DNA from: an uncultured Gemmatimonadota bacterium
GTDB taxonomy: Bacteria > JAAXHH01
DNA length: 64,000 nucleotides
Assembly (NCBI GenBank): GCA_951812955.1
Contig: OX638340.1
Coordinates: forward strand, 800,001 to 864,000
Direction: 5' to 3'
The stretch's first letter is position 1; each line of letters begins with the position of its first letter. Position numbers and translations under genes: made by a program. The notes under the pieces are model-generated. The model was not told the origin of the DNA and searched no databases. It was given only the letters and a program-made list of their open reading frames with translations. This document shows, in pieces, positions 18,961 through 59,874 of this stretch.

Positions 18961-21207
18961 CTATTTCAACATTTTCACGATTTCATCATGCCCGGCTTTC
19001 TGCGCACGCGCAAACGGCGTAGCCCATTCCGCGCCCCCGGCACTGGGATCCGCGCCTCGTCCAAGCAGGAACTCCACCATGTCCCGGTGCCCCCAGCGCG
19101 CAGCCCATCCAAGCGGCGTCGAGCACCACTCGTCATCGATGGCTTCAATGGCCGCGCCGCGATCCAGCAACAGGGCGGCCTTTTCCACGTCACCGATCGC
19201 GGCCAGCTTGTGCAGGTAGGTGACGCCGTGCCAGTTGGCGTTATTGGGATCAGCCCCGCTGTCAAAAAACAGGTTCAGCATGTCCAGGATATCGTCATGC
19301 GGTCGCAAGGCGGCTCCGTCCAGTTTCCAGCCCTTTCGCCGTCTGAAGGCGTATCCCATGTAGTTGTTGGCGTACCACGGACGGTTCAGTTCGGCGCCAG
19401 CGCGGATCAGCATTTCGATAATCTCCTTGCGGGCGAATCCGGCTGCCATGCAAAGCACCCCGTAGTCGCCTCCGTAATTGGCCAGTCCTGGGTCCGCGCC
19501 GAGCAGTTCTCCAACGACCGGAATGTTATCTCTTAAAACGTACAAACCAATATCTGCCGTTGCACCGTGCTGATAGAGCAGGTTGATCATTTCCTCATTT
19601 TTGTCCCGTCCCAGTGCCTGGGTCAATGGATTGCCGCTCGACTCCACCGGCGCATTCGGGTCGGCTCCGCGTTCCAGCAGGAGTTTTGCGGTCTCGAGGT
19701 GATCGCCGGCTACGGCTTCGTACAACGCGTGACCGCGAGGCGCGTTGTACTCTGGCGCGTTGGGATCGGCCCCTTGGTCCAGCAGAAGTCGAACGATATC
19801 GGTATACCCCTGCCCCGCCGCGCTGTAGAGGGGGGAGAACCCGCAGGAATCCTGGTCGCTGACCAGGTTGCTGTCCCGCGCGAGCAGTTCCCGTACTCGC
19901 CGTTCGTCCCCCAGGGCACACGCGACGGTCATGCTGTATTCCGCTCCCCTCGCGACCAGGTATCCAGTCAGCAGCGGATTGGTCCGCCCCTGGGTTTTGC
20001 GGGCTCGAAACACGGCCAGGTGAAGGGGTTTGCATCTATCCCACCTTACCGGATCCGGTTCGGCCCCCAAATCCAACAGCAGGGCCGTCATTCCCAGGTT
20101 GTATTCTTCCACGGCCACGTGCAGCGGCCGACTGCCGCGTTCGTCGCCGGCGTTAACCAATTCCGGCGAGGCATTAAAAAACGCACGGGCCTCTTCCAGA
20201 TCGCCCTCCCGAACGATCTCGCAGGCGCGCTGGCCTACAGGGGGCGCTTCGTACCTGTTTGAAATCGCCTCCGTCAACAGTCCGGCGATCTCGTCGTATC
20301 CGCGGTCCCGGGCCCGATCCAGCGGCGGCACGTGGTATTCGAGTCCCGATGCCGAGGCGGGATCCGCGCCATGGTCGAGCAACAGGCGTACTGCTTCCGC
20401 ATGCCCTTCCCTGACAGCGAAGTGGAGCGGCTGGTAGTAAGCCCAGTTGCAGTTCGCCAGCCCCGGCTCTTTAAGCAACAGATCCTGGATCCTGGCCAGG
20501 TCTCCTTCAACCGCGGCCAACAGCATGTCCCATACCCTATCTGGCTTGCCATCCATGAAAAGACCTTGCTCGTTCGTGAAATCGGGTCGAATCCATTTCA
20601 TAACTCGGTCTCCGAATGCATCGTCCGTCGACGGCGCGTAATGATTGAGGTCCTGGTAAAGGACGCGGAAAAGACGGGGTTTCAGTTTGTTGCGGGCTTC
20701 GTAGAGCCGCTTGCGTACCGTGCCCGCTTTCAAACCCATGAACCCCGCGATTTCAGTCGGGGAATAGTCTCCAATATACCTCAGCAGCGTTACTTCTCTT
20801 AACGTCTCCGGCAGTGCTTCGACCGCCTCGCGGACCTTGTCGCTCAGGTCTTCGCGCGTAACCCGGTCCAGGGGACTTTCCCCGGTGGCCTGTAGTTTGT
20901 CCTCCATGGGCACAAGTACGTGGTTCTGACTTCTCCGGTACCGATAGCACTGCCATTGCACGATGCGTCGCAGCCAGGCCGGAAACGCGTCCGGTTCACG
21001 CAGCGACCGGATGTTCTGCCACGCGGCGACAAACCCTTCCTGCGTGGCGTCCTCCGCCAGGTGGCGTTCACCCAGGAGGCTTAGCGCGTAACCGAAAGCC
21101 ATGTCCTGATAGTAAGCCACCAGCTTGCCGAAGGCGAATCCTCGATCTGAATCGGGTACCGTGGCGTCCGTGGAGGCCTGTATGCATTTTAAAATATCGT
21201 TGGTCAT
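18961..21207 (-). CDS. ECF (group IV) sigma-70 factor fused to a ~550-aa C-terminal ankyrin-repeat domain
   Basis: Region 2 (...FVAAWQNIRSLREPDAFPAWLRRIVQWQC...) and region 4 (LREVTLLRYIGDYSPTEIAGFMGLKAGTVRKRLYEARNKL), followed by many ANK repeats (..PLHFAVREGHAEAVRLLLDHGADP..). Start taken at ATG 21207 (MTNDILK). Confidence 0.8.
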   Translation of the reverse strand: MTNDILKCIQASTDATVPDSDRGFAFGKLVAYYQDMAFGYALSLLGERHLAEDATQEGFVAAWQNIRSLREPDAFPAWLRRIVQWQCYRYRRSQNHVLVPMEDKLQATGESPLDRVTREDLSDKVREAVEALPETLREVTLLRYIGDYSPTEIAGFMGLKAGTVRKRLYEARNKLKPRLFRVLYQDLNHYAPSTDDAFGDRVMKWIRPDFTNEQGLFMDGKPDRVWDMLLAAVEGDLARIQDLLLKEPGLANCNWAYYQPLHFAVREGHAEAVRLLLDHGADPASASGLEYHVPPLDRARDRGYDEIAGLLTEAISNRYEAPPVGQRACEIVREGDLEEARAFFNASPELVNAGDERGSRPLHVAVEEYNLGMTALLLDLGAEPDPVRWDRCKPLHLAVFRARKTQGRTNPLLTGYLVARGAEYSMTVACALGDERRVRELLARDSNLVSDQDSCGFSPLYSAAGQGYTDIVRLLLDQGADPNAPEYNAPRGHALYEAVAGDHLETAKLLLERGADPNAPVESSGNPLTQALGRDKNEEMINLLYQHGATADIGLYVLRDNIPVVGELLGADPGLANYGGDYGVLCMAAGFARKEIIEMLIRAGAELNRPWYANNYMGYAFRRRKGWKLDGAALRPHDDILDMLNLFFDSGADPNNANWHGVTYLHKLAAIGDVEKAALLLDRGAAIEAIDDEWCSTPLGWAARWGHRDMVEFLLGRGADPSAGGAEWATPFARAQKAGHDEIVKMLK

Positions 21208-21431
21208 CGTCTGCCGTTGGGTTTCACCTGCAGCATCATTAATTAGTGAAATTCGTATTAAACTAGTACCATAAATCCTACCAGACGTTACAAATAGTTG
21301 ATAGATTGACACCACATTTTACGATTTCCGGGAATCGAAGCCGATCAGGCGGGCTGAATGATCACGAATATGATGAGATGAACAAAAGTCAACCGTAGCA
21401 AGTCGTTTACGTTGAATGTGGGGATAGCGCT

Positions 21432-21803
21432 ATGACCGACCTGAAAGTAAGCGCGCTCAGGGTTTTTGTCCCATCTAAGGACCACGAAACTTCGACCCGG
21501 TTCTACGAGGACCTCGGATTCGAAGCGGTCTGGTCCGGCCATGGGGTGACTGAGCTGCGGATTGAAGGATTCAGCTTTTTCCTTCAGAACTACTATCAGA
21601 AGGAATGGGCGGATAACTTCATGATACAGTTAAGGGTATCGGACCTGGATGCGTGGTGGCGGCACATCGTGGATAAGGATCTCGTGGCGCGATATGAGGG
21701 CGTCCGTGCCGCGGAGCCCAGGGTCCAGCCGTGGGGGCTTCGCGAGATCAACCTGATCGATCCCGCCGGCGTACTGTGGCACATCGCCGAAGAGCGGGAC
21801 TGA
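21432..21803 (+). CDS. VOC-family protein (glyoxalase/bleomycin-resistance fold)
   Basis: 123 aa; LRVFVPSKDHETSTRFYEDLGFE ... REINLIDPAGVLWHI. Confidence 0.7.
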   Translation: MTDLKVSALRVFVPSKDHETSTRFYEDLGFEAVWSGHGVTELRIEGFSFFLQNYYQKEWADNFMIQLRVSDLDAWWRHIVDKDLVARYEGVRAAEPRVQPWGLREINLIDPAGVLWHIAEERD

Positions 21804-23207: not shown

Positions 23208-23260
23208 GTTGATTCTCCCTGGGTTGTGGCGCGGGTACCTAGCGCGAGATTGAATACAAC

Positions 23261-23312: not shown

Positions 23313-23322
23313 TTGCGAAATA

Positions 23323-30763: not shown

Positions 30764-32332
30764 GTGACCTTCACGCCCAATGGACCGCATTCTTCCGCCG
30801 TGCATGCCGTTCTGCGCCATCGGGGCGGCCTCGCCCCGGAGCTGAGGCCCGATCCGACGCTCTTCCAACGAGTCGGGGGCCGATCCGTGATCGCGAAGGT
30901 AATCGACGGGCTGTACGACCGGATCGAAGTAGATTCCGACCTGCGTCCGATGTTTACCCGGACATTGGCTCCGGAACGTATGAAACAGAAAGCCTTCCTC
31001 GAAGAATGGATGGGAGAAGAACCGGGCTATACCCATCATCACGCCTACGGCGGAATCAAAAACCGCCACGGGCATATTCACATCACGCCGGAATCCGCGG
31101 AACGGTGGCTGGCGCACATGACCGATGCGTTGCTCGAGCATGTGAGGGATGACCGGCTCGTGAACGAAGCGCTGGCCACCCTCGGTCCCCTCGCCCGCGG
31201 ACTCGTCAACGAGAAGAAGCCACCAGAAAGCCCCGGACAACTCAGATGCTTCAGGGAAAAACGATGGAGACAGCCGGCCAAAATGGCGGCCAGGGGACAG
31301 ATGGAAGCACTCGAGAACTTTCTCGAGGAGGATTCCACGGTATTGGGCGATCCTCGTCACAGCGCAATCATCCTCGCGGAAGCGGCGCTGAGGGGCCATA
31401 CGCGGGTCGCGGCCCTGCTGCTTGACCGGGGGGTGGACGTAAACATACCATCTGCCCATTCGAGCGATATCATGATGACCGCCTATTGTGCCGCGCGAAG
31501 CAAGAGAAAAGACGAAACGGCCGGTTACCTGGCGGACCGCGGCGCGGTGTACGATGTCTTCAGCGCCTGTTTTCTCGGAGACATGGACCGGGTTGCCGTC
31601 CTGCTCGAAGCCCATCCCGGCCTGGTCAACGCAAGCGACCCCGCCTGCGACCTGTTGCCCGTGACCCCGTTGCACCATGCCGTGTACGGCGGCCATGAAC
31701 CCGTCGCCAGGTTCCTCTTTGAACGTGGCGCGGAGACCGGCGTGAACAGCACAGCCCTGTTGAAATACGCGGCGGAACGGGGACAGGCGAGCCTGGTCCG
31801 GTTGTTGCTGGCACACGGGGCGGATGCTTCGAGGATCGGTTGCGGCCGCTGGGTCGTCGATCCCGAGATCTCCGCGCTCCTGCTCGCCCGCGGCGCGGAC
31901 GTGAACTATCCCGATGGGAATTGGGTCTGGACGGCATGCACGGGAAACAACAGCCAGCGGGACGACCCCGCCTACGTGCAGGCACTGCTGGACAAGGGGG
32001 CCCGGATCGATACGGTTCTGCGCGGCGCCCAGGCACTGCACTTTGCCGCAAAGGCGGGATTCACTGGGGTCATGGAAGTGCTGTTGGAAAACGGGGCGCC
32101 GGTCGACGGGCAAAATGACGATGGCGAAACCCCCCTGTTCTACGCGCTGAAGGCGGGTCCCAGGGCCGATGTTGTCAAATCCGTGGAACTGCTGTTATCC
32201 CATGGCGCAGATCCGAATATTGAAGACAGGCTGGGCAAGACGCCCCTGGGAAATGCCTGCCGGATGAAGCGTCCCGATAAAGCTCGAATCGTCTCGGTGC
32301 TCGAAGCGGCTAGTCCTTCCTTACCGGCGTAA
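30764..32332 (+). CDS. truncated hemoglobin (2/2 Hb) N-terminal domain fused to an ankyrin-repeat domain
   Basis: Globin part: LFQRVGGRSVIAKVIDGLYDRIEVDSDLRPMF...KQKAFLEEWMGEEPGYTHHHAYGGIKNRHGHIHITPESAERWLAHM (the trHb pattern, with proximal-His region). Then seven or more ANK repeats (..TPLHHAVYGGHEPVARFLFERGAE..). Start codon uncertain (GTG/ATG near 30764). Confidence 0.65.
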   Translation: MTFTPNGPHSSAVHAVLRHRGGLAPELRPDPTLFQRVGGRSVIAKVIDGLYDRIEVDSDLRPMFTRTLAPERMKQKAFLEEWMGEEPGYTHHHAYGGIKNRHGHIHITPESAERWLAHMTDALLEHVRDDRLVNEALATLGPLARGLVNEKKPPESPGQLRCFREKRWRQPAKMAARGQMEALENFLEEDSTVLGDPRHSAIILAEAALRGHTRVAALLLDRGVDVNIPSAHSSDIMMTAYCAARSKRKDETAGYLADRGAVYDVFSACFLGDMDRVAVLLEAHPGLVNASDPACDLLPVTPLHHAVYGGHEPVARFLFERGAETGVNSTALLKYAAERGQASLVRLLLAHGADASRIGCGRWVVDPEISALLLARGADVNYPDGNWVWTACTGNNSQRDDPAYVQALLDKGARIDTVLRGAQALHFAAKAGFTGVMEVLLENGAPVDGQNDDGETPLFYALKAGPRADVVKSVELLLSHGADPNIEDRLGKTPLGNACRMKRPDKARIVSVLEAASPSLPA

Positions 32333-33347
32333 TGTCTTTCAAAAACTTAACAAGAGATTTTCGCTCCGCCGTCGGGCCGTGTATTTCAATCCCCACTTCC
32401 GCCCATACCAGCGGCGTCGTGCCGTGTTCATCGTCTGTCGCGGCGGGATCGGCGCCGGATTCGACGAGCAACTTCGCGATCTCCCTGTTCCCGCATAGAT
32501 GGAGGGGCGTCTGCCCGAAATCCGCACGGGCGTTAGCATCCGCTCCCCAGTCCAGCAGCGCCCGGACCGTATCCTCCCATCCATGCTGAACCGCGGCGTG
32601 AAGTGGCGTGCCCACCACGGCGTGGACGCCGATCTTTCCCGAATATGCTGTGACACCCCCATCTCTTTTGTGGACCTGGCGTAGTTCGTCTGTCCTTCCA
32701 AGCGCCGCAAGCTGGCACGGGTCGGCCGGCGCGCCGCGCGCAATCAGGAATTCCGCGACCGCGCGGCACCGCTCCCCGCGGGAAAGGGCCGCGCCCAATG
32801 GCGTGTTGCCCTCGCTGTCGAGCGTATTCAGGCGCGCTTGGTGGTCGAGAAGCAGCCCGGCCGTTTCGACTGACATGGCCACGTGGAGGGGTGATACTCC
32901 GCCTAGGTCAGGGCGGGCCGCCGCTTCAGGATCTTCCGCGAGAATCGCACGAACGGTAGAGACGTCATCTAGCAGGCACGCGGCGTGGATGTCGACCCTG
33001 GCGCCCCGGTCCCGCAATAGAGCGGCGGCCTCAAGGTGTCCCCAGTGTGCGGCCAGGTGCAAGGCGCTCCAACCGCCGTAGGAATCGGCGCCGTGGTTCG
33101 GATCCGCTCCATTCCGCAGCAGCAATTCGATCACCCTCGTATCCCCGCGCTCGGCCGCCAGTTGTATAGGCACGGGACGGCCTCCCCAACGGGGATGGGC
33201 CACCGGTTCATTAACGATACCGGGCTCACGGGAAAGGACTTCTTCGACCTGCTCCGGGTCACCCTGCCAGATGGCGGCTCGCAGTCGTTCCTTCGCCGTC
33301 TCGCCGTTCCGGGCCGTCTGACCGCCGGGTTCAAGGGGAGTGGACAT
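32310..33347 (-). CDS. ankyrin-repeat protein
   Basis: ANK repeats (..SALHLAAHWGHLEAAALLRDRGARVD..; ..TPLHLCGNREIAKLLVESGADP..). Start chosen at MSTPLEP (ATG 33347, RBS AAGGAAGGA); the ORF is open to 33470. Confidence 0.8.
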   Translation of the reverse strand: MSTPLEPGGQTARNGETAKERLRAAIWQGDPEQVEEVLSREPGIVNEPVAHPRWGGRPVPIQLAAERGDTRVIELLLRNGADPNHGADSYGGWSALHLAAHWGHLEAAALLRDRGARVDIHAACLLDDVSTVRAILAEDPEAAARPDLGGVSPLHVAMSVETAGLLLDHQARLNTLDSEGNTPLGAALSRGERCRAVAEFLIARGAPADPCQLAALGRTDELRQVHKRDGGVTAYSGKIGVHAVVGTPLHAAVQHGWEDTVRALLDWGADANARADFGQTPLHLCGNREIAKLLVESGADPAATDDEHGTTPLVWAEVGIEIHGPTAERKSLVKFLKDITPVRKD

Positions 33348-33534: not shown

Positions 33535-33621
33535 GCGATCCGCGATGGCCGCGAAGAAGGCGTCCATGTCCGCGTGCAGGATCGTACGGGATTGATTCAC
33601 GATGGGCTGGATTGGACTACA
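33535..33621 (-). pseudogene. remnant of a dinB (Pol IV) 5' end, duplicated together with the downstream ankyrin gene
   Basis: Minus strand translates ...VNQSRTILHADMDAFFAAIADR..., matching MNRIRTILHADMDAFFAAVEQR of the intact dinB at 44674. About 40 nt are near-identical at DNA level. It is stopped after ~19 more codons. Confidence 0.5.
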
Positions 33622-37577: not shown

Positions 37578-37593
37578 GATTCCTTCTCCTCGT
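37546..37593. repeat. perfect 24-bp tandem duplication (TTCGTCATGATTCCTTCTCCTCG[A/T]) spanning the RBS/start junction of the SRPBCC-ankyrin gene pair
   Basis: Read directly. On the coding (minus) strand each copy carries GGAGAAGGAATC-ATGA, that is RBS, ATG and the overlapping TGA. Confidence 0.6.
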
Positions 37594-49452: not shown

Positions 49453-50343
49453 ATGGCGTCCAATACAGGCGAATTCGAATCCTTCCTGGCGATGTTTGAA
49501 CGCGGTGATTTGGAGGCCGCAAGCGCCTATGTAGAAAGCCATCCCCTGCTGGCCGATTACGATGGCATCCAGGCCCACCCTCTACTTCGGGAGTTCGTTC
49601 GCAGGAATTGCGGCCACTGCTACAAATCGTCCCATCGGGCCATCGCAGATCTCCTTATTCCTGATCGGATTCGAGCCTTTCGGAATGACGTGATGGCCGA
49701 CCGGACCGATAACGTCAAGTCACGACTGAACGCGGAACCCAATCTCGTGCATGCAGAGTTTACCGGCGGCCGGGGAATCGCCCGAGCGATACACCACTGG
49801 CGGTCCATCCCTGTCGGCAAGCTGCTGCTGGACGGCGGGGCCGACGTGAATGCCCTTACGACTGTAGGTTGTGCCGGGGAAACACCCCTCATGATGCAAC
49901 TTCGTTTCGGTACCGTGGAAGGCGTGCGCTTTCTTTTGGCAAACGGCGCGGAAACGAATCTGGGCGGACTCAAGCATTCGCCGAGCACATCGATGGCCGC
50001 GGGGCTCAAGCTGCTGCTTCGGCACGGATGGGACATCAACGAGCGGGTAGGCGGCCGCACCCTGCTGCACCATGACGCCAATCACGGTCACGGTAAGCGC
50101 GTTCAACTGCTGCTGGGGCATGGCGCCGATCCCAACATTAAAGATGCCGAGGGTCGAACCGCGTTGCACCTGGTCAGTGCGAGAGGGGTCGGCGCGGAGA
50201 CGATCCGCGCCCTGGTGGAAGCCGGCGCACTCGTGGATGCCCGTGATGATCAAGATAGAACTCCATTAGACCTGGCCGCTTCGGCCAGGAGCCAGGCAGC
50301 GCTCCGAGCGCTTCAGAAGCTTGGCGCCCCTGGCGCCCGGTGA
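49453..50343 (+). CDS. ankyrin-repeat protein
   Basis: ANK repeats (..TPLMMQLRFGTVEGVRFLLANGAE..; ..TALHLVSARGVGAETIRALVEAGALVD..). Confidence 0.85.
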   Translation: MASNTGEFESFLAMFERGDLEAASAYVESHPLLADYDGIQAHPLLREFVRRNCGHCYKSSHRAIADLLIPDRIRAFRNDVMADRTDNVKSRLNAEPNLVHAEFTGGRGIARAIHHWRSIPVGKLLLDGGADVNALTTVGCAGETPLMMQLRFGTVEGVRFLLANGAETNLGGLKHSPSTSMAAGLKLLLRHGWDINERVGGRTLLHHDANHGHGKRVQLLLGHGADPNIKDAEGRTALHLVSARGVGAETIRALVEAGALVDARDDQDRTPLDLAASARSQAALRALQKLGAPGAR

Positions 50344-50384: not shown

Positions 50385-52085
50385 GTGTCCCAAAAACACG
50401 CTTTGGAAATCTGTGGAAAATACCCTGAACGCGCAGAACGCATGGCCTTCCCAGGCAAGTTCCTTGGGCGGGTACATCTCGATGCGTGCCGGACCGGTTG
50501 CATGATTTGTCCGGGGCTGGGCCCGGAGCTCGGTCGCCCCTATTATGACGACCGCTGGGGCGACGATACCGACTGGATCGACGGCGAATCCGCCTGGACT
50601 CTGTTCAAAGCAAGCACGGCAGGTGACCTGGAAGTTATCGCAGCACTCCTCGACGAAGACCCGCGTCTCGTGAATGCGATGCACTGGTACACCCAGCCCG
50701 TACACCTGGCCGCCCGGCACGGGCACGCCGAAGCGACGGAGTTGCTTCTCGCTCGGAACGCCGACCCGGGGCTGGTTATTTTCGATTCGACCTGGTCAAG
50801 CCTGCTCGAGAACACACGATCCCGTGGGTTTGAGGACGTAGTGGAAGTGATTTCCGGTGCGATGCGAGATCGATTCGGCTACGATCCCGCGTTCATGGAG
50901 ATAGCCGGGCTGATTGAGAACAGCAACGTTGAAATGGTTAAAACGGCGCTGAATGACAATCCCGAACTCGTTGATCGATCCGACGCGGCAGGAAACAACG
51001 GTCTTCACCTCGGTGTGATAAATGGCCGTAAAAACCTGGTCGAACTGTTTCTCGAACGCGGTCTGCCCATAGATTCACGACGTGCTGACGGGAAAACACC
51101 GCTGACACTGTCTTTCGACACGGGTTTCGGACAACATCCACCGGACCCGAAACTGGGTATAACCGAGAATCTTTTGATGAATGGTGCGGATTACGCCATC
51201 ACGGCAGCCAGTTACCTGGGTGATCATGCCCGGGTTCGTTCGATCCTCGATGAGAATCCATCGGCTGCCGGCCGCGACGCGTCGATGAAGAGCCCCCTGG
51301 CGTACGCGGCTAGAGCGGGGCACGAAGATATTGCCCGGATGCTGCTTGACGCAGGAGTCGATGGCCATGTCGTGGACGAAGCGCTTTTTGAAGCTGTATG
51401 GTGTAAGCACGCGGGTGTTGCTGACCTGTTGCTGGAATACGGAGCCAACCCGAACGTGGAATTGGATTCTTGCGGATATGCCGCGGGTACCGATGAACAC
51501 GCGATACGGGATCTGCTCGTGCGTAATGGCGGGGTGACTCCACCATATTGGGAACTGGGTCAAAACGAACTCCGTCAGCTGGTGGATTGCAGAGCCGCAA
51601 GGGTCCGAGATCCCTACCTGATTGCGAATGTGCTCGAATCCGAGGACGAGAAACTGATCGACAGGTTACTGGATGGTGATCCACTTGCACTCGGCCGCCT
51701 GGAGGAACTTCAATACCTGCCGGGATGGGGTGACCATGCTGTGATTACGCGCAAACTGGTCGCGGCGGGGCTCGATCCGAACCGAAGGACATTCGAAGGC
51801 CAGACCTATCTTCACGTCTGTGCCAGGCAGGGCTGGGAGAAGACGGCTCAGGCATTAATCGAACAAGGTGCTGCGGTAAACGTACTGGATGAGAAGGAAG
51901 GCTGGACACCGCTGGCGATCGCGGTCAAAAACGGCCGGATCGGTATGGTTCGGCTGTTGTTGGAACGCGGCGCGGATCCCTACCTGGCCGATTGGCCATG
52001 GACTCGACCGCTAACGGTTGCAGAGGAGATTGATAACGAAGGAATTACAGAACTTTTACGTCTCTACAAAGGCAATACTGCATAA
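50385..52085 (+). CDS. ankyrin-repeat protein (566 aa)
   Basis: More than 10 ANK repeats (..QPVHLAARHGHAEATELLLARNADP..; ..TPLAIAVKNGRIGMVRLLLERGADP..). Confidence 0.85.
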   Translation: MSQKHALEICGKYPERAERMAFPGKFLGRVHLDACRTGCMICPGLGPELGRPYYDDRWGDDTDWIDGESAWTLFKASTAGDLEVIAALLDEDPRLVNAMHWYTQPVHLAARHGHAEATELLLARNADPGLVIFDSTWSSLLENTRSRGFEDVVEVISGAMRDRFGYDPAFMEIAGLIENSNVEMVKTALNDNPELVDRSDAAGNNGLHLGVINGRKNLVELFLERGLPIDSRRADGKTPLTLSFDTGFGQHPPDPKLGITENLLMNGADYAITAASYLGDHARVRSILDENPSAAGRDASMKSPLAYAARAGHEDIARMLLDAGVDGHVVDEALFEAVWCKHAGVADLLLEYGANPNVELDSCGYAAGTDEHAIRDLLVRNGGVTPPYWELGQNELRQLVDCRAARVRDPYLIANVLESEDEKLIDRLLDGDPLALGRLEELQYLPGWGDHAVITRKLVAAGLDPNRRTFEGQTYLHVCARQGWEKTAQALIEQGAAVNVLDEKEGWTPLAIAVKNGRIGMVRLLLERGADPYLADWPWTRPLTVAEEIDNEGITELLRLYKGNTA

Positions 52086-53145: not shown

Positions 53146-54372
53146 ATGATGAACGCCACCATCAGACAATTGCCCGATCAGCCGAATCTGCGACTACTCG
53201 AAAACGAGGCATCTGAACTGCTCGAGAATGGCTCCTGCACTACACAGGCCGAGGCACGTTTCAAACTAGCGCACCTGTACGGTTTTAAGAGTTGGCCGAA
53301 ACTGGAAGCCTACGTATCATCCATCGGATCCATGGGAGAACTCGAACAGGCAATCCAGGACGACGACGTCGATAGAGTGAAGCGGATATTGGACGAGGAC
53401 CCGGGGCTGATTCACCGTGAAGGGCACTGGGTCAAACGCCGCAGGCACAACGGCTACCTGCCGCTCGCATACGCTGCGTTTTTCGGTAAGGTAAACGTGC
53501 TGGCGGCACTGGTCGAGGCCGGTTCGAATGTACGCGCTGGGGAGGACAAGGCGTTACGAGCCGCGGCGTGTTTCGACAAAAACCTCCCCGCGGTCGAATT
53601 ACTGATCCGCCATGGAGCAGACCCAAACGCATCGACTACATCGCCTTCCGGTGTCCCGTACCGGGTGATCGATTATCCATGCATGACGTTGGCGCCCAAG
53701 ATGTTAGCCCACCTGGTTGAGAAGGGCGGTATTTTGAAGCCGGCCAATGCCGGGATGGTACTCGCGACGAATGAACGCAGACCCCGGGAGAAAGCCGCCT
53801 GCCTTCGCGTGATGGAACATGCGGGTATCCCGTTTCCGGATTCCCCTCCGATGGCCCTTCATCTCAGGGACTCGAACCGTCTGGAATCGCATCTGCTCAG
53901 GGATCCCGGATTGCTCTCGAGGTCGTTCAGCGAAGAAGACATCTTCCCAACGGGTTTCGAAATCAAGCGTCCTACGCCCTACGCTTACGCAACACCGCTG
54001 ACCGGTGGGGTCTCCCTGCTTCACATGGCTGTCGAGTTGTGTGACGTGGAACTGGCGCGGTGGCTCATCGAGCATGGCGCCGACGTTAATGCCGCCGCGG
54101 GGACAGACGACGAGGGATACGGCGGATGGACGCCCCTGTTCCACGCCATGGTCACGCTGCGCGTCCCACGTGGTTTTGCCGAAATCGTCGATCTGCTCCT
54201 GGATCATGGCGCCGACCCGGAAGTGCGAGCGTCCCTGCGTAAACCGACTCCAGAGGGTGGAGAAGCCACCTGGCGCGACGTTACGGCGGCCGATTACGCC
54301 CGAAGATTCATCTACACGGATTTAGTCAATCACGACGCGCTGCAGCGGGTCATGGTGGCCGGTGCGAAATAG
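53146..54372 (+). CDS. ankyrin-repeat protein
   Basis: ANK repeats (..LPLAYAAFFGKVNVLAALVEAGSNV..; ..SLLHMAVELCDVELARWLIEHGADVN..). Confidence 0.85.
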   Translation: MMNATIRQLPDQPNLRLLENEASELLENGSCTTQAEARFKLAHLYGFKSWPKLEAYVSSIGSMGELEQAIQDDDVDRVKRILDEDPGLIHREGHWVKRRRHNGYLPLAYAAFFGKVNVLAALVEAGSNVRAGEDKALRAAACFDKNLPAVELLIRHGADPNASTTSPSGVPYRVIDYPCMTLAPKMLAHLVEKGGILKPANAGMVLATNERRPREKAACLRVMEHAGIPFPDSPPMALHLRDSNRLESHLLRDPGLLSRSFSEEDIFPTGFEIKRPTPYAYATPLTGGVSLLHMAVELCDVELARWLIEHGADVNAAAGTDDEGYGGWTPLFHAMVTLRVPRGFAEIVDLLLDHGADPEVRASLRKPTPEGGEATWRDVTAADYARRFIYTDLVNHDALQRVMVAGAK

Positions 54373-54400: not shown

Positions 54401-56284
54401 ATGGACCCCGCCATGACTCCGAAAACGCCTTCTACCAGTCTACAGGTTGGTACCGTGTCCGATCACGATTATGCCCCCTCGAAGAACTGGCCCTACCCGG
54501 TCACAAAGTCACAAATCATGGACGAGGTCCGGAAACTGTCATTGGCCATCCAGGACGGTCGTGCCGAAGCCATGGCAGAAAAAAACAGGTATGGAAGTTC
54601 AGCTGATCCGTCATCGTTCTCCCCGGACGACGCACGGAACGTACTCGCCCTAAGTTACGGATTCCCGGGCTGGACACAGGTAGAACGGTACTTCGATACG
54701 GTAGACAGGTATTCGCGCGACCCTAACATGGAACCCACGCCAACCAATTCGGATGACGCGTCTTCGCTCGCCGATGTTTTCCTTCGTCTTGCCTGCCTGA
54801 CGCAGGGCGTCCAGGACCACCCGTCTCGGTGGGCAAGGGCCAGGGCCTTGCTCGATGACCATCCGAAACTATCCCGGTTGAATATCTACACCGCTTCGGT
54901 CGCCGGCGACGTTTCAGCCGTGGGCGAATACCTGGAAGCGGATTCTGAACTGGCTACGACGCCTGGCGGCCCCCATGACTGGGAGCCCCTGCTATACCTG
55001 GCGTATTCCCGTCTGGACCGCGAGACCTCGGGGCATTCCGCCGTCGAAATCACCCGGTTGCTCCTCTCCCATGGCGCCGACCCGAACGCGGGCTACCTCT
55101 GGGCGGGTTTCCCCTGCCCTTACACCGTACTGACCGGAGTCTTCGGCGAGGGTGAGAACGGTCCGGTCAGGTGTCCTCCACACCCTAACTGCTGCAAACT
55201 GGCGGAAATCCTGTTGGAGGCCGGGGCCGATCCCAACGACGCCCAGACACTATACAACAGGATGTTCAGCCGCGACGACGAACACCTTCGGTTCCTGTTC
55301 ACGCACGGCCTGGGGAAGGACCGGGACCGGCCCTGGCACCGGTTGTTGGGCGAACAATCCCGCGGCTGGGTGAGCAGTCCCGCGAGCATACTGGCCTACC
55401 AGCTTCAGTGGGCAGCCCGATGGAACTACCTGGATCGCGTCAAGTTACTGGTCGAAAACGGCGCCGACGTAAACAGGCCCTCCAACCGGCCCGATGCGCG
55501 ATCACCTTACCGCGAGGCCGTGTTCCACGGAAACGAGTCCATCGCCGAATACCTGGCAATCTGCGGCGCGGAGACGTTTGTGCTGGACGACCTGGACCGT
55601 TTCGCCGGCGCGTGCATCAGTGGAGACCTGGGTCGTGCCCGCGCGATGCTCGCACGCGATCCGTCACTCGTTGAAAAACTTGGAGAACGCGGGAACACGC
55701 TCATGGAGAACGCCGTTGGGTCGGACAACCGGGACGCGGTCCGGCTGATGTTCGAACTGGGCTTCGACTTGAAGAAATCCGGTATGCAAGAAGCGGCCCG
55801 TTATGGCCACCTGGACATGATCAAACTGCTGGTCGAGCTTGGGACTGATGTTTCCCAAACGGACGCGGGCCACGAGATCTGTGCCCTGGGCTATGCCAGC
55901 CATTACCAGCAAAATAACGTGATCGACTACCTGGCGCAGTTCGCCGGGATACACAGAGCAGTGCAGTCGGACTTGTTGGAACGGGTCGGGGAACTGCTTG
56001 ACGAAGATCCCGGTCTCGTACACGCTCGAGATACCAGCGGCAACTCGCCGCTGCACTGTCTCGACGTGGACAACAGGATGGAAGATACGGAGGAGATACT
56101 CCGTCTGCTCGTAACGCACGGAGCCGATGTCAATGCCAGAAACAAGGAAGGCCTGACACCGCTCGACAGGCTGGAGCTTCTTTCCGGTTTCAGTCGAAGA
56201 GACGGTTTGGCGGAACTGTTGCGCGGGTACGGGGCCGTGGAGTCAGACGCCGCCGACGGGTCAAAGAACCGTCCGGAGTCGTGA
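54401..56284 (+). CDS. ankyrin-repeat protein (627 aa)
   Basis: Many ANK repeats (..EAARYGHLDMIKLLVELGTDV..; ..SPLHCLDVDNRMEDTEEILRLLVTHGADVN..). Confidence 0.85.
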   Translation: MDPAMTPKTPSTSLQVGTVSDHDYAPSKNWPYPVTKSQIMDEVRKLSLAIQDGRAEAMAEKNRYGSSADPSSFSPDDARNVLALSYGFPGWTQVERYFDTVDRYSRDPNMEPTPTNSDDASSLADVFLRLACLTQGVQDHPSRWARARALLDDHPKLSRLNIYTASVAGDVSAVGEYLEADSELATTPGGPHDWEPLLYLAYSRLDRETSGHSAVEITRLLLSHGADPNAGYLWAGFPCPYTVLTGVFGEGENGPVRCPPHPNCCKLAEILLEAGADPNDAQTLYNRMFSRDDEHLRFLFTHGLGKDRDRPWHRLLGEQSRGWVSSPASILAYQLQWAARWNYLDRVKLLVENGADVNRPSNRPDARSPYREAVFHGNESIAEYLAICGAETFVLDDLDRFAGACISGDLGRARAMLARDPSLVEKLGERGNTLMENAVGSDNRDAVRLMFELGFDLKKSGMQEAARYGHLDMIKLLVELGTDVSQTDAGHEICALGYASHYQQNNVIDYLAQFAGIHRAVQSDLLERVGELLDEDPGLVHARDTSGNSPLHCLDVDNRMEDTEEILRLLVTHGADVNARNKEGLTPLDRLELLSGFSRRDGLAELLRGYGAVESDAADGSKNRPES

Positions 56285-58199: not shown

Positions 58200-58353
58200 T
58201 GCCGATATCGGCGTGTGCAGGACGCCGCCCGTCCGCGGAAAGAACATAAGTTCACCTGTGTCGGTTCCCAATCTATCGTGGCAACCTTCTTCCTGCCCGT
58301 CCGGCGGACGCACGGGTGCTTCGGCGGTCTCATGATCGCTTGAAGGAGGTTCC

Positions 58354-59874
58354 ATGCCGTCCCTGCCTTCACAACCCGATATACGCCATCTCAGTCTGCA
58401 GGCGAAAACGCTTCTGAAGTCCGCGCGCAGCGGCGAAGAGCATGCCGTAGACAGAATCCGCTCGGCCATCGGAGTGCGACGCGAACGCCTCGTGCTGTCG
58501 GACGCCTACCATGCCATCGCCAGGGAATACGGGTTCAGGTCCTGGCCCCATCTCAAGATACACATCGAAATCGTCGCTAGAAACCTGGACGAACAGCGCG
58601 AGATGTTTCTGTCATCGGCATGGCTGTGGGGCGATCGGCAGAGAGCCGAGGCCCTGCTCGCTACCGCTCCGGAACTCTCCAAGGGAAACATCCATGCCGC
58701 CTGCGCCGCCGGGGACGTGGATGCCGTCGCAGGTATCCTGGAGGCCGACCCCGCTTCGGCCACGACGAAGGGCGGTCCGAGAGACTGGCCCCCGATACTC
58801 TACGCGACGTGGTCCTGCTTTCTTTCCGAACGTGCCGACGCCATGGTCCGAGTCCTGGAATTGCTGCTGCGGCACGGCGCCGACCCGGACAGCTACTGGG
58901 TGAACGAGTCGGACTGGAAAGAGTCGGCCCTTTACGGATGCGTTGAAAACAACTGCGTACCGGCGGCCAGGGTGCTGGTGGACGCGGGCGCCAACCCAAA
59001 TGACAACGAATCCCTCTACCACGCCTGTGAGAAATTCAACCTGGAACTGCTCGACACGGTCGCGGCGAACGGACTGGACGCGGAAGGCGTCTCCTATTGC
59101 ATCAAGCATGCCATGGACATGACATGGACCGAGGCCGTCATGTGGTTTCTCGACCAGGGCGCCGATCCCAACGCCATCCATCCCGCCGACCGGGAGACCT
59201 CCCTTCACTGGGCGGTAAAGAGAAACTGCACAGCAGACGTGATCAGTGCGCTCCTGGACGCCGGAGCGGACCCCAACGCACGCACGTCGACCGGGAAGAG
59301 TACGGCCCTCGGGATCGTCGGCTGGACGCCCCTCGATTTCGCCTTCCGGCTCGGTCGCGGGGAGGTCGCCGCGCTCCTACAGCGGAATAGCGCCGAACCG
59401 TCCCCCATGTCCGAATACGACCGCTTCGTAGTCGCGTGCGCCAATACGGACCTCGATATCGTGGAGCAACTGAAAGACCGTCACCTGGCCAACTTGACTG
59501 ACGACGACCGGACCCTCATCAGCCACGCGGCCCAGATGGACAACTGGGCGGCGGTCCGTCTCATGGCGGACCTGGGCTGGCCGGTAGACGCCCGGGGCTG
59601 GATGGATGCCACGCCCCTCTACTGGGCCCTGTGCAAAGGCCATGCCGAAATGGTCGATTTCCTGCTTCGGCGGGGTGTCTCCATCGAACCCATCGGCGGA
59701 TACTTCCAGGATCCGGTCCATGCCGTGATTCATTGCCAGTGGAATGGGGACAAAAGCGGGTACCCGGTCGCGCTCGGTCGACTGCTCGACCATGGCCTCG
59801 GCGTTCCGGAAGGACGCTATCCATGCGGCAATGTCGCGATGGACGAGGTGCTGTCGCGCTACGTCGAAAACTGA
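58354..59874 (+). CDS. ankyrin-repeat protein (506 aa)
   Basis: ANK repeats (..TSLHWAVKRNCTADVISALLDAGADPN..; ..TPLYWALCKGHAEMVDFLLRRGVS..); RBS GAAGGAGG. Confidence 0.85.
   Translation: MPSLPSQPDIRHLSLQAKTLLKSARSGEEHAVDRIRSAIGVRRERLVLSDAYHAIAREYGFRSWPHLKIHIEIVARNLDEQREMFLSSAWLWGDRQRAEALLATAPELSKGNIHAACAAGDVDAVAGILEADPASATTKGGPRDWPPILYATWSCFLSERADAMVRVLELLLRHGADPDSYWVNESDWKESALYGCVENNCVPAARVLVDAGANPNDNESLYHACEKFNLELLDTVAANGLDAEGVSYCIKHAMDMTWTEAVMWFLDQGADPNAIHPADRETSLHWAVKRNCTADVISALLDAGADPNARTSTGKSTALGIVGWTPLDFAFRLGRGEVAALLQRNSAEPSPMSEYDRFVVACANTDLDIVEQLKDRHLANLTDDDRTLISHAAQMDNWAAVRLMADLGWPVDARGWMDATPLYWALCKGHAEMVDFLLRRGVSIEPIGGYFQDPVHAVIHCQWNGDKSGYPVALGRLLDHGLGVPEGRYPCGNVAMDEVLSRYVEN

What the first reader, a model, noticed from the sequence alone, without database searches (positions are those of the whole stretch)
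18961..59874. Twelve ankyrin-repeat protein genes in 64 kb, about a quarter of the window
ANK genes lie at 18961-21207, 30764-32332, 32310-33347, 33841-34452, 35844-37577, 38325-39119, 44808-45419, 49453-50343, 50385-52085, 53146-54372, 54401-56284 and 58354-59874. They sum to about 15.8 kb. This density is far above what free-living bacteria carry. It is characteristic of obligate or facultative eukaryote-associated bacteria (sponge symbionts, amoeba symbionts, Legionella-like pathogens), where ANK proteins manipulate host phagocytosis and trafficking. Most copies lack signal peptides, which suggests either a dedicated secretion system or intracellular roles. They are interleaved with, not segregated from, housekeeping genes. 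Several have their own sigma70-like promoters.
Basis: partly seen in the sequence, partly recalled or inferred. Interest (0 to 1): 0.75.

Follow-up and report, generated by a model that had tools for sequence, protein, structure and literature searches.

The report
Ankyrin-gene hotspot in a sponge symbiont
A 41-kb stretch of a sponge-associated bacterial chromosome really does carry twelve ankyrin-repeat genes, but they look like old, conserved, cytoplasmic bacterial proteins (one fused to a sigma factor, one to a haemoglobin) and not like proven secreted host-manipulation effectors.

Summary
All 12 ORFs hit Pfam Ank families far above cut-off, and no further ANK ORF exists in the window. They total 15,831 bp (24.7%), or 12 of about 50 genes.

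The organism belongs to a sponge-associated lineage. It is filed as Gemmatimonadota at NCBI and as Latescibacterota in Robbins 2021. It shows 93% nucleotide identity and collinearity to an Aplysina aerophoba MAG.

- The sister MAG has 12 Ank_2 genes in its whole 90%-complete genome. The window therefore looks like a local hotspot holding most of the repertoire, not a sample of a genome-wide density.
- None of the 12 has a signal peptide or a transmembrane segment.
- A1 is an ECF sigma factor with a ~530-aa ANK extension, and A2 is a truncated haemoglobin-ANK fusion.
- At least 7 of the 12 belong to families with full-length homologues in free-living or non-sponge bacteria. One free-living species has 5 ANK genes in 11.6 kb.
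- The six ANK genes that could be tested evolve under purifying selection like their UvrA and PolB neighbours.
- There are no mobile-element marks. One recent segmental duplication exists (A7 to A4).

A side finding is an ECF-like promoter motif shared by the sigma-ANK gene and the operon of its ANK paralogue.

Verdict: a real feature and a new member of a known kind, of moderate interest.

The parts
18961..21207 (-). A1: ECF sigma factor (sigma2 about aa 29-95, sigma4 about aa 123-175) fused to a ~530-aa C-terminal ANK solenoid; 748 aa.
   Evidence: Pfam gives Sigma70_r2, Sigma70_r4_2 and Ank families. NCBIfam TIGR02937 sigma70-ECF scores 86 bits against a 42.9-bit cut-off. AlphaFold gives pLDDT 85 and pTM 0.72, with helical repeats over 222-748. 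Full-length fusion homologues range from 93% down to 30% identity.
21264..21291 (-). Conserved ECF-like promoter motif GTAAC-N17-RYACTA, 57 nt upstream of the A1 start codon.
   Evidence: It is conserved in the window and in L001, L002, L005, L006 and L007, in otherwise divergent intergenic DNA. The pattern occurs twice in the window against 0.14 expected.
21432..21803 (+). Small VOC/glyoxalase-type gene (123 aa, weakly bleomycin-binding-like), divergent from A1.
   Evidence: ORF listed. It is conserved in the relatives that keep this upstream segment (all but L003). The NCBIfam BLMA family scores 33 bits, below its 140-bit cut-off.
30764..32332 (+). A2: truncated haemoglobin (Bac_globin, aa 32-144) fused to ANK repeats; 522 aa.
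   Evidence: Pfam Bac_globin scores 56.6 bits against a 21-bit cut-off, plus Ank families. The fusion is widespread across phyla, and JGI names it 'truncated hemoglobin YjbI/ankyrin repeat protein'.
32310..33347 (-). A3: ANK protein of 345 aa, convergent with A2 and overlapping it by 23 nt.
   Evidence: Pfam. The orthologue is kept in L002-L007.
33536..33610 (.). Remnant of the dinB 5' end, carried along with the A7-to-A4 segmental duplication.
   Evidence: It is 79-84% identical to 44610-44684.
33841..34452 (+). A4: small ANK protein of 203 aa, a lineage-specific duplicate of A7.
   Evidence: A4 is 77% amino-acid and 79% nucleotide identical to A7. It is absent from the collinear L002, where window 33387-34565 is replaced.
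35844..37577 (-). A5: 577-aa stand-alone member of the four-module ANK family (a paralogue of the A1 ANK part), in an operon with the SRPBCC gene upstream.
   Evidence: A5 is collinear with A1 residues 214-748 at 30% identity. It is 32% identical over its full length to the Paenibacillus protein.
37574..38074 (-). AHSA1/SRPBCC gene of 166 aa, overlapping the A5 start by 4 nt.
   Evidence: Pfam AHSA1.
38085..38155 (-). Two tandem copies of the A1-type promoter motif, the proximal one ending 17 nt upstream of the SRPBCC-A5 operon.
   Evidence: Strict pattern hit at 38091-38118. A PWM built from the A1 sites only scores 23.7 and 20.2 bits. A single copy of the site is present in L002 but not in L006 or L007.
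38325..39119 (+). A6: ANK protein of 264 aa, weakly related to A4 and A7.
   Evidence: Pfam, paralogy, orthologues in L002, L006 and L007.
44808..45419 (+). A7: small ANK protein of 203 aa, the source copy of A4.
   Evidence: Pfam, duplication evidence. No relatives on viral contigs.
49453..50343 (+). A8: ANK protein of 296 aa, 41 nt upstream of A9.
   Evidence: Pfam.
50385..52085 (+). A9: 566-aa member of the four-module ANK family, with a Cys-rich N-terminus.
   Evidence: A9 is collinear with the A1 ANK part and with A5. It is 29-32% identical over its full length to the Pseudoflavitalea, Paenibacillus and Bacillus proteins.
53146..54372 (+). A10: 408-aa ANK protein with the N-terminal 'YGFxSW' helical domain.
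   Evidence: Pfam, sequence, paralogy with A12.
54401..56284 (+). A11: 627-aa ANK protein carrying the same 'YGFxSW' domain (motif at about aa 86-91), 28 nt downstream of A10.
   Evidence: Pfam. A11 is 29% identical to A12 over 440 aa.
58354..59874 (+). A12: 506-aa ANK protein with the N-terminal 'YGFxSW' domain.
   Evidence: Pfam. Full-length homologues occur in marine Latescibacteria, Planctomycetes and Capsulimonas. The N-terminal domain has 2109 cluster representatives.

Best explanation
The feature is a vertically inherited chromosomal hotspot. In it, a sponge-associated Gemmatimonadota/Latescibacterota-type lineage keeps most of its ankyrin-repeat genes.

The twelve genes include three deep bacterial ANK groups plus three singletons:
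- a ~540-aa four-module family (A1 ANK part, A5, A9);
- an N-terminal 'YGFxSW'-domain family (A10, A11, A12);
- a ~200-aa family (A4, A7, A6);
- a globin fusion (A2);
- two unfused singletons (A3, A8).

The ANK stacks are protein-binding surfaces. None of the proteins has an export signal, and two are welded to cytoplasmic signalling domains. The most likely mode of action for most of them is therefore inside the bacterium, as adaptor or regulatory modules.
- A1 is an ECF sigma factor whose ANK extension takes the place of an anti-sigma factor. By inference it drives its own promoter and that of the SRPBCC-A5 operon.
- A2 is a haem-based sensor with an ANK output.

Shown: domain content, lack of signals, synteny, purifying selection, distribution of homologues, the shared motif.
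Inferred: cytoplasmic function, sigma autoregulation, regulon membership.

A host-directed role for some of the unfused copies is not excluded.
For: - All 12 are ANK proteins, and there are no others in the window.
- The lineage and its habitat are established.
- Synteny of the ANK orthologues is kept in relatives at 78-80% and 93% nucleotide identity.
- For the six ANK genes covered by the related loci (A1, A2, A3, A5, A6; A4 has no orthologue), dN/dS is 0.09-0.31. Non-ANK neighbours show 0.05-0.31.
- GC3 does not differ from that of neighbours (p = 0.27).
- There are no tRNAs and no long inverted repeats, and Pfam found no integrase or transposase domain in the ORFs scanned.
- The sister MAG has 12 Ank_2 genes in total.
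- The right-hand flank in a relative holds 10 kb of housekeeping genes without ANK. The left 19 kb of the window has none.
- None of the 12 has a signal or TM feature.
- The ECF and globin fusions are shown.
- The A1 ANK part is 46% identical over about 540 aa to a Paenibacillus protein, more than to its own paralogues at about 30%.
- A cluster of the same families occurs in free-living Pseudoflavitalea.
- The A12 and A2 families span several phyla. A12 has homologues in cultured free-living species, and A2 in non-sponge metagenomes.
- The motif GTAAC-N17-RYACTA occurs 8 times in 1.53 Mb. Every occurrence lies upstream of an A1 orthologue or of the SRPBCC-A5 operon.
- No anti-sigma gene lies next to A1.
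Against: - The genome-wide count comes from a fragmented, 90%-complete sister MAG, not from this chromosome.
- Signal-peptide absence rests on a hydrophobicity heuristic. Non-classical export, outer-membrane vesicles or release on lysis in a phagosome cannot be excluded.
- Sponge-symbiont ANK proteins have been shown experimentally to alter phagocytosis when expressed in E. coli (cited; phage ANKp).
- ANK enrichment correlates with the sponge habitat: 0.25% of genes against 0.09% in seawater MAGs.
- The promoter motif upstream of SRPBCC-A5 is present only in the window and in L002, not in L006 or L007. Distant ECF-ANK fusions lack it.
- dN/dS could not be measured for A7-A12, which lie outside the related loci.
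- No partner of any ANK domain is known.
Confidence: 0.55

Rival explanations
1. Host-effector reading. The ANK proteins are eukaryote-like proteins that reach sponge cells and interfere with phagosome maturation or trafficking, so that the symbiont escapes digestion. Delivery would be by a dedicated or non-classical route.
For: - The lineage is sponge-associated.
- ANK proteins are enriched in sponge MAGs of this group.
- Sponge-derived and phage-derived ANK proteins reduce phagocytosis in heterologous assays.
- Twelve ANK genes in a genome of about 3.8 Mb is above the seawater-MAG average.
- The unfused copies (A3, A4, A6, A7, A8) have no other assignable role.
Against: - None of the 12 has a signal peptide, whereas the phage ANKs proposed to be secreted carry one.
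- Robbins et al. themselves note that few sponge MAG lineages encode secretion systems.
- No secretion-system gene lies in the window.
- A1 and A2 are fused to cytoplasmic domains.
- Full-length homologues, and a similar cluster, occur in free-living soil bacteria.
- The six ANK genes tested evolve under housekeeping-like purifying selection, not at arms-race rates.
- Legionella Dot/Icm Ank models score far below cut-off, for example 97 bits against 600.
Confidence: 0.3
2. Anti-phage defence reading. Some of the ANK proteins, especially the sigma-ANK fusion, belong to a defence system such as MZA, whose MzaA protein is a sigma-70 family protein with ANK repeats, or to a PADLOC candidate system.
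For: - NCBIfam MzaA and the PADLOC models PDC-M72A and Ankyrin hit several of the proteins.
- Defence genes are enriched in sponge symbionts.
Against: - The hits cover only the ANK repeats and are far below cut-off (MzaA 67 bits against 800).
- The A1 sigma part does not match MzaA, and in MzaA the ANK repeats lie in the N-terminal part of the profile, whereas in A1 they are C-terminal.
- No other defence component turned up among the 10 proteins scanned against PADLOC. No nuclease, ATPase or MutL-type partner is adjacent.
- The genes are syntenic and conserved, unlike typical defence islands.
Confidence: 0.05
3. Recently acquired island or recent tandem expansion. The density reflects horizontal acquisition of an ANK island, or a burst of recent local duplication.
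For: - One clear recent segmental duplication exists (A7 to A4), carrying a dinB 5' remnant.
- ANK content between dinB and A12 differs in a more distant relative, which has 1 ANK gene against 5 in the window.
Against: - Paralogues other than A4/A7 are only 23-32% identical.
- Orthologues are syntenic in genomes at 78-80% nucleotide identity.
- GC3 equals that of neighbours.
- There are no tRNAs and no long inverted repeats, and Pfam found no integrase or transposase domain in the ORFs scanned.
Confidence: 0.1

Closest known systems
Ankyrin-repeat 'eukaryote-like proteins' of sponge symbionts (Robbins et al. 2021, PMC8163846; Nguyen et al. 2014 as cited there; phage ANKp, Jahn et al., bioRxiv 10.1101/608950)
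   Same: ANK-repeat proteins are encoded in above-average number by a sponge-associated bacterium. The sister MAG APA_bin_41 is part of the very dataset in which the enrichment was reported.
   Different: - None of the twelve has an export signal, whereas the phage ANKs proposed to be secreted have one.
- Two are fused to cytoplasmic regulatory or sensor domains.
- The families are shared with free-living bacteria.
- The genes are concentrated in one 41-kb region, a point the literature read here does not describe.
ECF sigma factors regulated by fused C-terminal extensions (ECF41/56/294/295 SnoaL-like, ECF42 TPR, ECF238 Cys-rich; Casas-Pastor et al. 2021, PMC7826278)
   Same: A1 has a sigma2-sigma4 core, a long C-terminal extension, no neighbouring anti-sigma gene, and a conserved promoter with an AAC-type -35 element upstream of its own gene.
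   Different: The extension is a ~530-aa four-module ANK solenoid. The word 'ankyrin' does not occur in the main text of the reclassification paper, and its supplements could not be read. The regulatory role of the extension is untested.
MzaA, the sigma-70 family protein with ANK repeats of the MZA anti-phage system (NCBIfam NF041931, PADLOC PDLC02203)
   Same: Both combine ANK repeats with a sigma-70 family protein.
   Different: Only the ANK repeats match (67 bits against an 800-bit cut-off). In MzaA the ANK repeats lie in the N-terminal part of the profile, in A1 they are C-terminal, so the domain order differs. No Mza partner genes are present.
Legionella/Coxiella Dot/Icm type IV ankyrin effectors (AnkH, AnkY, AnkG, AnkX ...)
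   Same: They are bacterial ANK-repeat proteins of host-associated bacteria.
   Different: Matches are restricted to the repeats and lie far below the equivalog cut-offs (at most 97 bits against 450-1400). No T4SS gene is in the window.
Truncated haemoglobins (Pfam Bac_globin; YjbI/HbO type) and globin-coupled sensors
   Same: The A2 N-terminus is a Bac_globin domain (56.6 bits against 21). It keeps an Arg-His pair in the segment IKNRHGHIHIT, read by eye as the candidate proximal-His (F8) segment.
   Different: It is fused to about 350 aa of ANK repeats instead of being a single domain or being coupled to MCP, GGDEF or kinase outputs. The fusion is widespread but uncharacterised. The literature search found no paper that looked relevant to such a fusion, judged from titles and abstracts.
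ANK gene clusters in free-living bacteria (Pseudoflavitalea sp. X16 locus L083; Paenibacillus ginsengarvi L081)
   Same: The same two families occur (the ~540-aa four-module family and the 'Y[GA]FxSW' N-terminal family). The same interleaving with VOC/glyoxalase and GNAT genes is seen.
   Different: The phylum and habitat differ. That cluster is shorter (5 genes in 11.6 kb) and has no sigma or globin fusion.

Membership tests
Ankyrin-repeat proteins (Pfam Ank clan) | Tandem ~33-residue repeats scoring above the Pfam gathering threshold | tested here: met
   All 12 pass. Ank_2 scores are 46-155 bits against a 27.3-bit cut-off. An independent HMM agrees.
Sponge-symbiont ANK effectors (eukaryote-like proteins that modulate phagocytosis) | Encoded by a sponge-associated microbe | tested here: met
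   The window is 93.4% nucleotide-identical and collinear with the Aplysina aerophoba MAG APA_bin_41. This is met by proxy, because the window's own sample is unknown.
Sponge-symbiont ANK effectors (eukaryote-like proteins that modulate phagocytosis) | Export from the bacterial cell (signal peptide or a secretion system) | tested here: not met
   None of the 12 has a hydrophobic N-terminal segment, a Tat motif, a lipobox or a TM-like segment (heuristic, not SignalP). No secretion-system gene is in the window.
Sponge-symbiont ANK effectors (eukaryote-like proteins that modulate phagocytosis) | Alters phagocytosis or phagosome maturation of a eukaryotic cell | not testable with these tools
   This needs amoeba, macrophage or sponge-cell assays.
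Legionella Dot/Icm ankyrin effectors | Score at or above the NCBIfam equivalog cut-off | tested here: not met
   The best hit is AnkH at 97 bits against 600. Hits cover ANK repeats only.
ECF sigma factors with regulatory C-terminal extension | Sigma2 and sigma4 domains without sigma3 or sigma1; ECF superfamily score above cut-off | tested here: met
   Pfam Sigma70_r2 and Sigma70_r4_2. TIGR02937 scores 86 bits against 42.9.
ECF sigma factors with regulatory C-terminal extension | Extension longer than 50 aa fused after sigma4, and no anti-sigma gene next to it | tested here: met
   About 570 aa follow sigma4. The neighbours are a VOC protein, an HhH-GPD glycosylase and a BNR protein.
ECF sigma factors with regulatory C-terminal extension | Extension of a described type (SnoaL-like, TPR, Cys-rich, DUF1835, TM) | tested here: not met
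   The extension is made of ANK repeats. ANK is not mentioned in the classification paper's main text.
ECF sigma factors with regulatory C-terminal extension | The extension controls sigma activity; the sigma transcribes its own promoter | not testable with these tools
   Only indirect evidence exists: a conserved motif with an AAC-type -35 element upstream of A1 orthologues, shared with the SRPBCC-A5 operon.
MzaA (MZA anti-phage system) | Full-length match above cut-off, and MzaB-E partner genes | tested here: not met
   NCBIfam gives 67 bits against 800, covering ANK only. PADLOC gives no MzaA hit for A1 and no partner models among the 10 proteins scanned.
Truncated haemoglobins (Bac_globin) | Pfam score above cut-off; candidate proximal histidine kept | tested here: met
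   A2 scores 56.6 bits against 21 over profile positions 1-116 of 121. An Arg-His pair is present in IKNRHGHIHIT (by eye). Haem binding itself is untested.
Genomic island / mobile element | Flanking tRNA, integrase or transposase, terminal repeats, atypical composition, patchy presence in relatives | tested here: not met
   There are no tRNAs and no long inverted repeats. No such Pfam domains were found in the ORFs scanned. GC3 equals that of neighbours. The region is syntenic in relatives.

The most novel reading that the evidence does not exclude
The sigma-ANK fusion A1 represents an undescribed class of ECF sigma factor. In it, a ~530-aa four-module ankyrin solenoid replaces the anti-sigma factor. 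It autoregulates, and in this species group it also drives an operon encoding an SRPBCC protein plus a stand-alone paralogue of its own ANK domain (A5), which could act as a competitor or partner. More broadly, much of the 'eukaryote-like' ANK repertoire of this sponge symbiont would then be an endogenous bacterial regulatory and adaptor system, shared with free-living soil and marine bacteria, and not a set of host effectors.
Probability: 0.3. Interest if true: 0.6.

Novelty: new member of a known kind. Interest (0 to 1): 0.4.

Why it matters
ANK counts are routinely used as a genomic marker of host manipulation in sponge, coral and amoeba symbionts. Here the full set of twelve can be inspected gene by gene.
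- None is exportable by classical routes.
- Two are plainly cytoplasmic regulators.
- At least seven belong to families also present in free-living or non-sponge bacteria.
- The genes tested evolve like housekeeping genes.

If this holds genome-wide and in other symbiont lineages, ANK tallies overstate the effector repertoire, and part of the signal reflects retention of bacterial regulatory modules.

The ECF sigma-ANK fusion, with its shared promoter motif, gives a concrete and cheap experimental entry point: a reporter assay with and without the ANK domain. It addresses what such bacterial ANK proteins do.

Tried and rejected
1. Exact look-ups of window proteins (PNPOx, A7, and the A2-identical P0241) found no indexed contig, so the source chromosome (3,813,436 bp) could not be read. 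The genome-wide ANK count was therefore not directly obtainable.
2. GC and gene number for APA_bin_41 from Robbins Table S1 were discarded. The right-hand columns of that table are visibly scrambled: for example a 0.59-Mb Patescibacteria MAG is listed with 1933 genes. An apparent 'low-GC island' idea was dropped for that reason.
3. A search for A7 relatives on viral contigs, testing an Ankyphage link, found none.
4. The PADLOC scan gave only generic ANK hits.
5. The Foldseek search of the A1 model against the PDB returned only generic ANK solenoids (ankyrin-B/R, DARPins, tankyrase ARCs) at TM 0.2-0.3. The tool gives no inter-domain contacts, so docking of the ANK part on the sigma part could not be judged.
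6. The A1 promoter motif was sought upstream of distant ECF-ANK fusions (L084, L085) and upstream of SRPBCC in L006 and L007. It was absent.
7. Stand-alone ANK homologues in Paenibacillus, Bacillus and Pseudoflavitalea were checked for a neighbouring ECF sigma gene, as a Rosetta-stone test. None was found.
8. Supplements of the ECF classification paper and of the GPP34 paper are not held.
9. Sigma70-promoter and terminator scans gave counts close to shuffled expectation.

Full report
**1. Observation**

Ank_2 scores are 46-155 bits against a 27.3-bit cut-off. I built an independent ANK HMM by iterating from the repeat consensus and ran it over every stop-to-stop ORF of at least 80 aa in the window. 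It recovers exactly these twelve and nothing else.

They are 12 of about 50 genes, and 12 of 32 genes between 18961 and 59874.

- The A1 ATG at 21207 and the A6 ATG at 38325 are conserved in relatives.
- The longer ORF upstream of A4 runs into a duplicated dinB fragment and is spurious.

As a chance control I used 73 loci around the same UvrA gene in distant bacteria. They hold 7 ANK ORFs in 1.258 Mb, which predicts 0.36 per 64 kb. Poisson P(>=12) is 6e-15.

**2. Whose genome**

The UvrA gene of the window (26489-29446) finds its best matches in three tiers:
- 98% amino-acid identity in contig JAPOOT010000460 of 'Gemmatimonadetes bacterium APA_bin_41';
- 96% in a 3.91-Mb chromosome-level MAG (OY762445.1);
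- 84-86% in five further loci, most of them chromosome-scale MAG assemblies of about 3.5-4.0 Mb.

The next tier, at 61-71%, consists of MAGs of Gemmatimonadaceae, Acidobacteriota and a few other phyla.

At the DNA level the window is 93.4% identical and fully collinear with APA_bin_41 over 14.5 kb. It is 92.7% identical to OY762445.1 over 22.5 kb, and 78-80% identical to the other clade members.

The APA_bin series are Aplysina aerophoba MAGs of Robbins et al. 2021. Their Table S1 lists APA_bin_41 as a sponge MAG, 90% complete, 3.40 Mb in 519 contigs, placed in Latescibacterota by the GTDB release of the time. NCBI and later bins call the clade Gemmatimonadota.

A protein 100% identical to A2 sits on a 3,813,436-bp contig, presumably the source chromosome. 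That contig is not indexed for reading.

**3. Hotspot, not genome-wide density**

Robbins et al. report that ankyrin proteins make up on average 0.25% of genes in sponge Gemmatimonadota, against 0.09% in seawater MAGs. Their per-MAG Pfam table gives 12 genes with Ank_2 for the whole of APA_bin_41 (column 25 of File S2). That is the same number as in this one window.

The flanks agree.
- The left 19 kb of the window has no ANK gene.
- In a relative, the 10 kb to the right of the A12 orthologue is housekeeping (sucA, sucB, argG and others) without ANK.

The simplest reading is that the 41-kb segment holds most of the lineage's ANK repertoire. This is indirect. The MAG is fragmented and is a sister species, not the same genome. 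The GC and gene-number columns of that table are scrambled and were not used.

**4. Not a mobile island**

- ANK orthologues are kept in synteny in the clade loci, at 3-6 per ~23 kb in the full-length loci.
- For the six ANK genes covered by those loci (A1, A2, A3, A5, A6, with A4 lacking an orthologue), dN/dS against three relatives is 0.09-0.31. UvrA, PolB, HhH-GPD and other neighbours show 0.05-0.31. A1 is as conserved as UvrA (85.8% against 84.7% amino-acid identity to L005). A7-A12 lie outside the related loci and could not be tested.
- GC3 does not differ between ANK and non-ANK genes (p = 0.27).
- There are no tRNAs and no long inverted repeats. Pfam found no integrase or transposase domain in the ORFs scanned.
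- The only recent event is a ~0.9-kb segmental duplication that created A4 from A7. The two are 77% amino-acid and 79% nucleotide identical. The duplication carried along a 75-bp remnant of the divergent dinB 5' end. The whole segment is absent from the collinear OY762445.1.

ANK content between dinB and A12 is lower in a more distant relative, with one ANK gene against five. The region therefore does gain and lose copies over longer times.

**5. Anatomy of the twelve**

All-against-all comparison and Pfam sort them as follows.
- **Four-module family of about 540 aa:** the ANK part of A1 (residues 214-748), A5 and A9. They are collinear at 26-30% identity.
- **N-terminal helical-domain family:** A10, A11 and A12. 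The domain ends in the motif YGFxSWxxL.
- **Small family:** A4 and A7, with A6 distantly related.
- **Globin fusion:** A2, a truncated haemoglobin fused to ANK repeats.
- **Unfused singletons:** A3 and A8.

A1 is an ECF sigma factor. It has Sigma70_r2 and Sigma70_r4_2 domains, and TIGR02937 scores 86 bits against a 42.9-bit cut-off. A ~570-aa tail follows sigma4, and most of it is ANK repeats. AlphaFold models it with mean pLDDT 85 and pTM 0.72. The sigma2-sigma4 linker is disordered and helical repeats run from residue 222 to the end. Fold search finds only generic ANK solenoids.

None of the twelve has a hydrophobic N-terminal segment, a Tat motif, a lipobox or a TM-like stretch. This is a heuristic, not SignalP.

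**6. The families are not specific to host-associated bacteria**

*The A1 family.* The A1 query returns full-length sigma-ANK fusions from 93% down to 30% identity. It also returns stand-alone ~540-aa proteins at 37-46% identity over the whole ANK part. These come from Paenibacillus ginsengarvi, P. solanacearum, P. bovis, Bacillus haimaensis, Pseudoflavitalea sp. X16, Verrucomicrobiota MAGs and a Gemmatimonadaceae MAG. The Paenibacillus protein is closer to the A1 ANK part (46%) than A5 and A9 are (about 30%). These are therefore old orthologous groups.

*A cluster in a free-living species.* In Pseudoflavitalea the homologue lies in a cluster of five ANK genes in 11.6 kb. The cluster is interleaved with GNAT and glyoxalase/Ble-like genes. 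One of the five carries the same 'YAFNSW' N-terminal domain as A10-A12.

*A second cluster around a distant fusion.* A second, distant ECF-ANK fusion (36% identity) also sits among three other ANK genes and a PhyH gene.

*The A12 family.* A12 has full-length homologues at 50-59% identity in marine 'Ca. Latescibacteria' and Planctomycetes, including Roseiconus nitratireducens. It has one at about 35% in Capsulimonas corticalis.

*The globin-ANK fusion.* It recurs in Latescibacteria, a Global Ocean Sampling scaffold, Chloroflexota, Planctomycetes, Armatimonadota and Deltaproteobacteria.

*The N-terminal domain.* The domain of A12 alone has 2109 cluster representatives at E <= 1e-3. In nearly all of the hits listed it lies at or near the N-terminus, in one to three copies. 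Of 72 longer hits, 40 carry ANK repeats and a few carry LRR, Glyoxalase_8 or SnoaL_2. The domain itself has no Pfam model.

*Small-molecule-binding neighbours.* The window repeats the association seen elsewhere with small genes of this type. Examples are VOC genes at 14538-15176, 21432-21803 and 56631-57056, together with DinB_2, AHSA1, GyrI-like, DUF1801 and GNAT.

**7. A possible regulon**

The DNA upstream of A1 is divergent among relatives, except for two elements.
- A divergently transcribed VOC gene.
- A block TTGTAACG(C/T)C-N13-(G/A)(T/C)ACTA about 57 nt before the start codon.

Its -35-like half has the AAC core typical of ECF promoters (my own knowledge of the sigmaX, sigmaW and sigmaM consensus).

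The strict pattern GTAAC-N15-19-RYACTA occurs twice in the window, against 0.14 expected. The second copy ends 17 nt upstream of the start of the SRPBCC (AHSA1) gene. That gene overlaps A5, the stand-alone paralogue of the A1 ANK part.

In the 1.53 Mb of sequence held, the pattern occurs eight times. Six are upstream of A1 orthologues and two are upstream of SRPBCC-A5 (window and OY762445.1). None is in the 75 loci outside the clade.

A PWM built from the A1 sites alone scores the SRPBCC site at 23.7 bits. It also finds a tandem second copy at 20.2 bits. With the earlier PWM, which included the two SRPBCC-upstream sites, the best of 20 shuffled windows scored 16.1 bits.

The site is missing in the 79%-identity relatives and in distant fusions. 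Co-regulation, if real, is therefore young. That A1 itself reads these promoters is inference.

**8. Comparison with known systems**

- *Sponge 'eukaryote-like' ANK proteins.* The habitat and the enrichment match, but the export criterion fails. Robbins et al. already note that few sponge MAG lineages encode secretion systems. The phage ANKs proposed to be secreted carry a signal peptide.
- *Legionella Dot/Icm Ank effectors and MzaA.* Both match only through the repeats, far below cut-off. PADLOC adds nothing.
- *ECF sigma factors with C-terminal extensions.* A1 meets the architectural criteria: core domains, a long extension and no anti-sigma neighbour. Its extension type is not among those described, and 'ankyrin' is absent from the main text of the reclassification paper. 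The literature searches found no paper that looked relevant to a sigma-ANK or trHb-ANK fusion, judged from titles and abstracts.

**9. Verdict**

The habitat guess is right.

The extrapolation to a genome-wide density is probably wrong, and the host-effector mechanism is not supported by anything in the sequence. The best-supported reading is a conserved hotspot of cytoplasmic ANK adaptor and regulatory proteins of old bacterial families, retained in a sponge symbiont. A host-directed role for some unfused copies remains possible.

Novelty for the finding as stated is low, because ANK-rich sponge symbionts are known and the sister genome is in the published dataset. The clustering of the repertoire and the sigma-ANK fusion with its shared promoter motif are the parts worth a follow-up.

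Noticed in passing
window 21264-21291 (-), 38085-38155 (-); L001, L002, L005-L007: An ECF-like promoter motif GTAAC-N17-RYACTA is conserved upstream of the sigma-ANK gene. In the window and in L002 it also lies upstream of the SRPBCC-A5 operon. In the window that second site is tandemly duplicated by a ~31-bp repeat.
   Followed up: yes
window 58354-58638 (A12 aa 1-95); also the A10 N-terminus and A11 around aa 50-100; L083 9520-10767: There is a widespread helical domain without a Pfam model. Its consensus is LPxRPxLExLRxQAKxLLxAxRxGDxxAxxR...LADAQxVxAREYGFxSWPxLKxHVE. It has 2109 50%-identity cluster representatives. It lies at or near the N-terminus in nearly all hits listed, in 1-3 copies, mostly ahead of ANK repeats.
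   Followed up: partly
window 14538-15176, 21432-21803, 56631-57056; L083 6658-7056 and 10782-11588; L086 9188-9613: Small VOC/glyoxalase/bleomycin-binding-like genes recur right next to ANK genes. This is seen in the window, in a relative and in free-living Pseudoflavitalea. GNAT, PhyH, DinB_2, AHSA1, GyrI-like and DUF1801 genes occur alongside them.
   Followed up: partly
window 21823-30481 and 43505-44674: DNA-repair genes are interleaved with the ANK genes. They are an HhH-GPD glycosylase, a family-B DNA polymerase (841 aa), UvrA (985 aa), a Pol-beta-type nucleotidyltransferase and Pol IV/DinB. In Paenibacillus ginsengarvi the ANK homologue lies between an MGMT-like gene and a flavohaemoglobin gene.
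   Followed up: no
window 11579-12322 (-): A SAM-methyltransferase-like gene is split into two ORFs (12029-12322 and 11579-12010). This could be a frameshift, a pseudogene or an assembly error.
   Followed up: no
window 16815-17285 (+): This 156-aa ORF has no family hit and shows dN/dS above 1 against three relatives. It is probably not a real gene in this frame.
   Followed up: partly
window 3050-4579, 17538-18653, 34579-35757: Laminin_G_3, BNR/sortilin-Vps10-like and BNR_2 (sialidase-like) proteins are present. These types have been linked to use of sponge glycans in the literature.
   Followed up: no
window 50385-50520 (A9 aa 1-45): A9 has a Cys-rich N-terminus (CGKYPER...HLDACRTGCMICPG), which may be a metal-binding cap. 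It is absent from A5 and A1.
   Followed up: no
L086 6989-8074: A relative encodes a collagen-repeat/trypsin-like protein where the window has A7-A11. ANK content of the dinB-A12 interval varies between relatives (1 against 5).
   Followed up: no
Robbins et al. 2021, Table S1 (supplementary file 9 as held): The GC, coding-density and gene-number columns are out of register with the MAG names. For example a 0.59-Mb Patescibacteria MAG is listed with 1933 genes. Those values should not be used.
   Followed up: yes
window 1029-2873, 52094-53023, 61885-63084, 63088-63927: Four sizeable ORFs (279-614 aa) have no Pfam or PADLOC match. In NCBIfam, three have no match and 52094-53023 has one negligible sub-threshold hit. 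The pair at 61885-63927 is conserved next to the A12 orthologue in L086.
   Followed up: no
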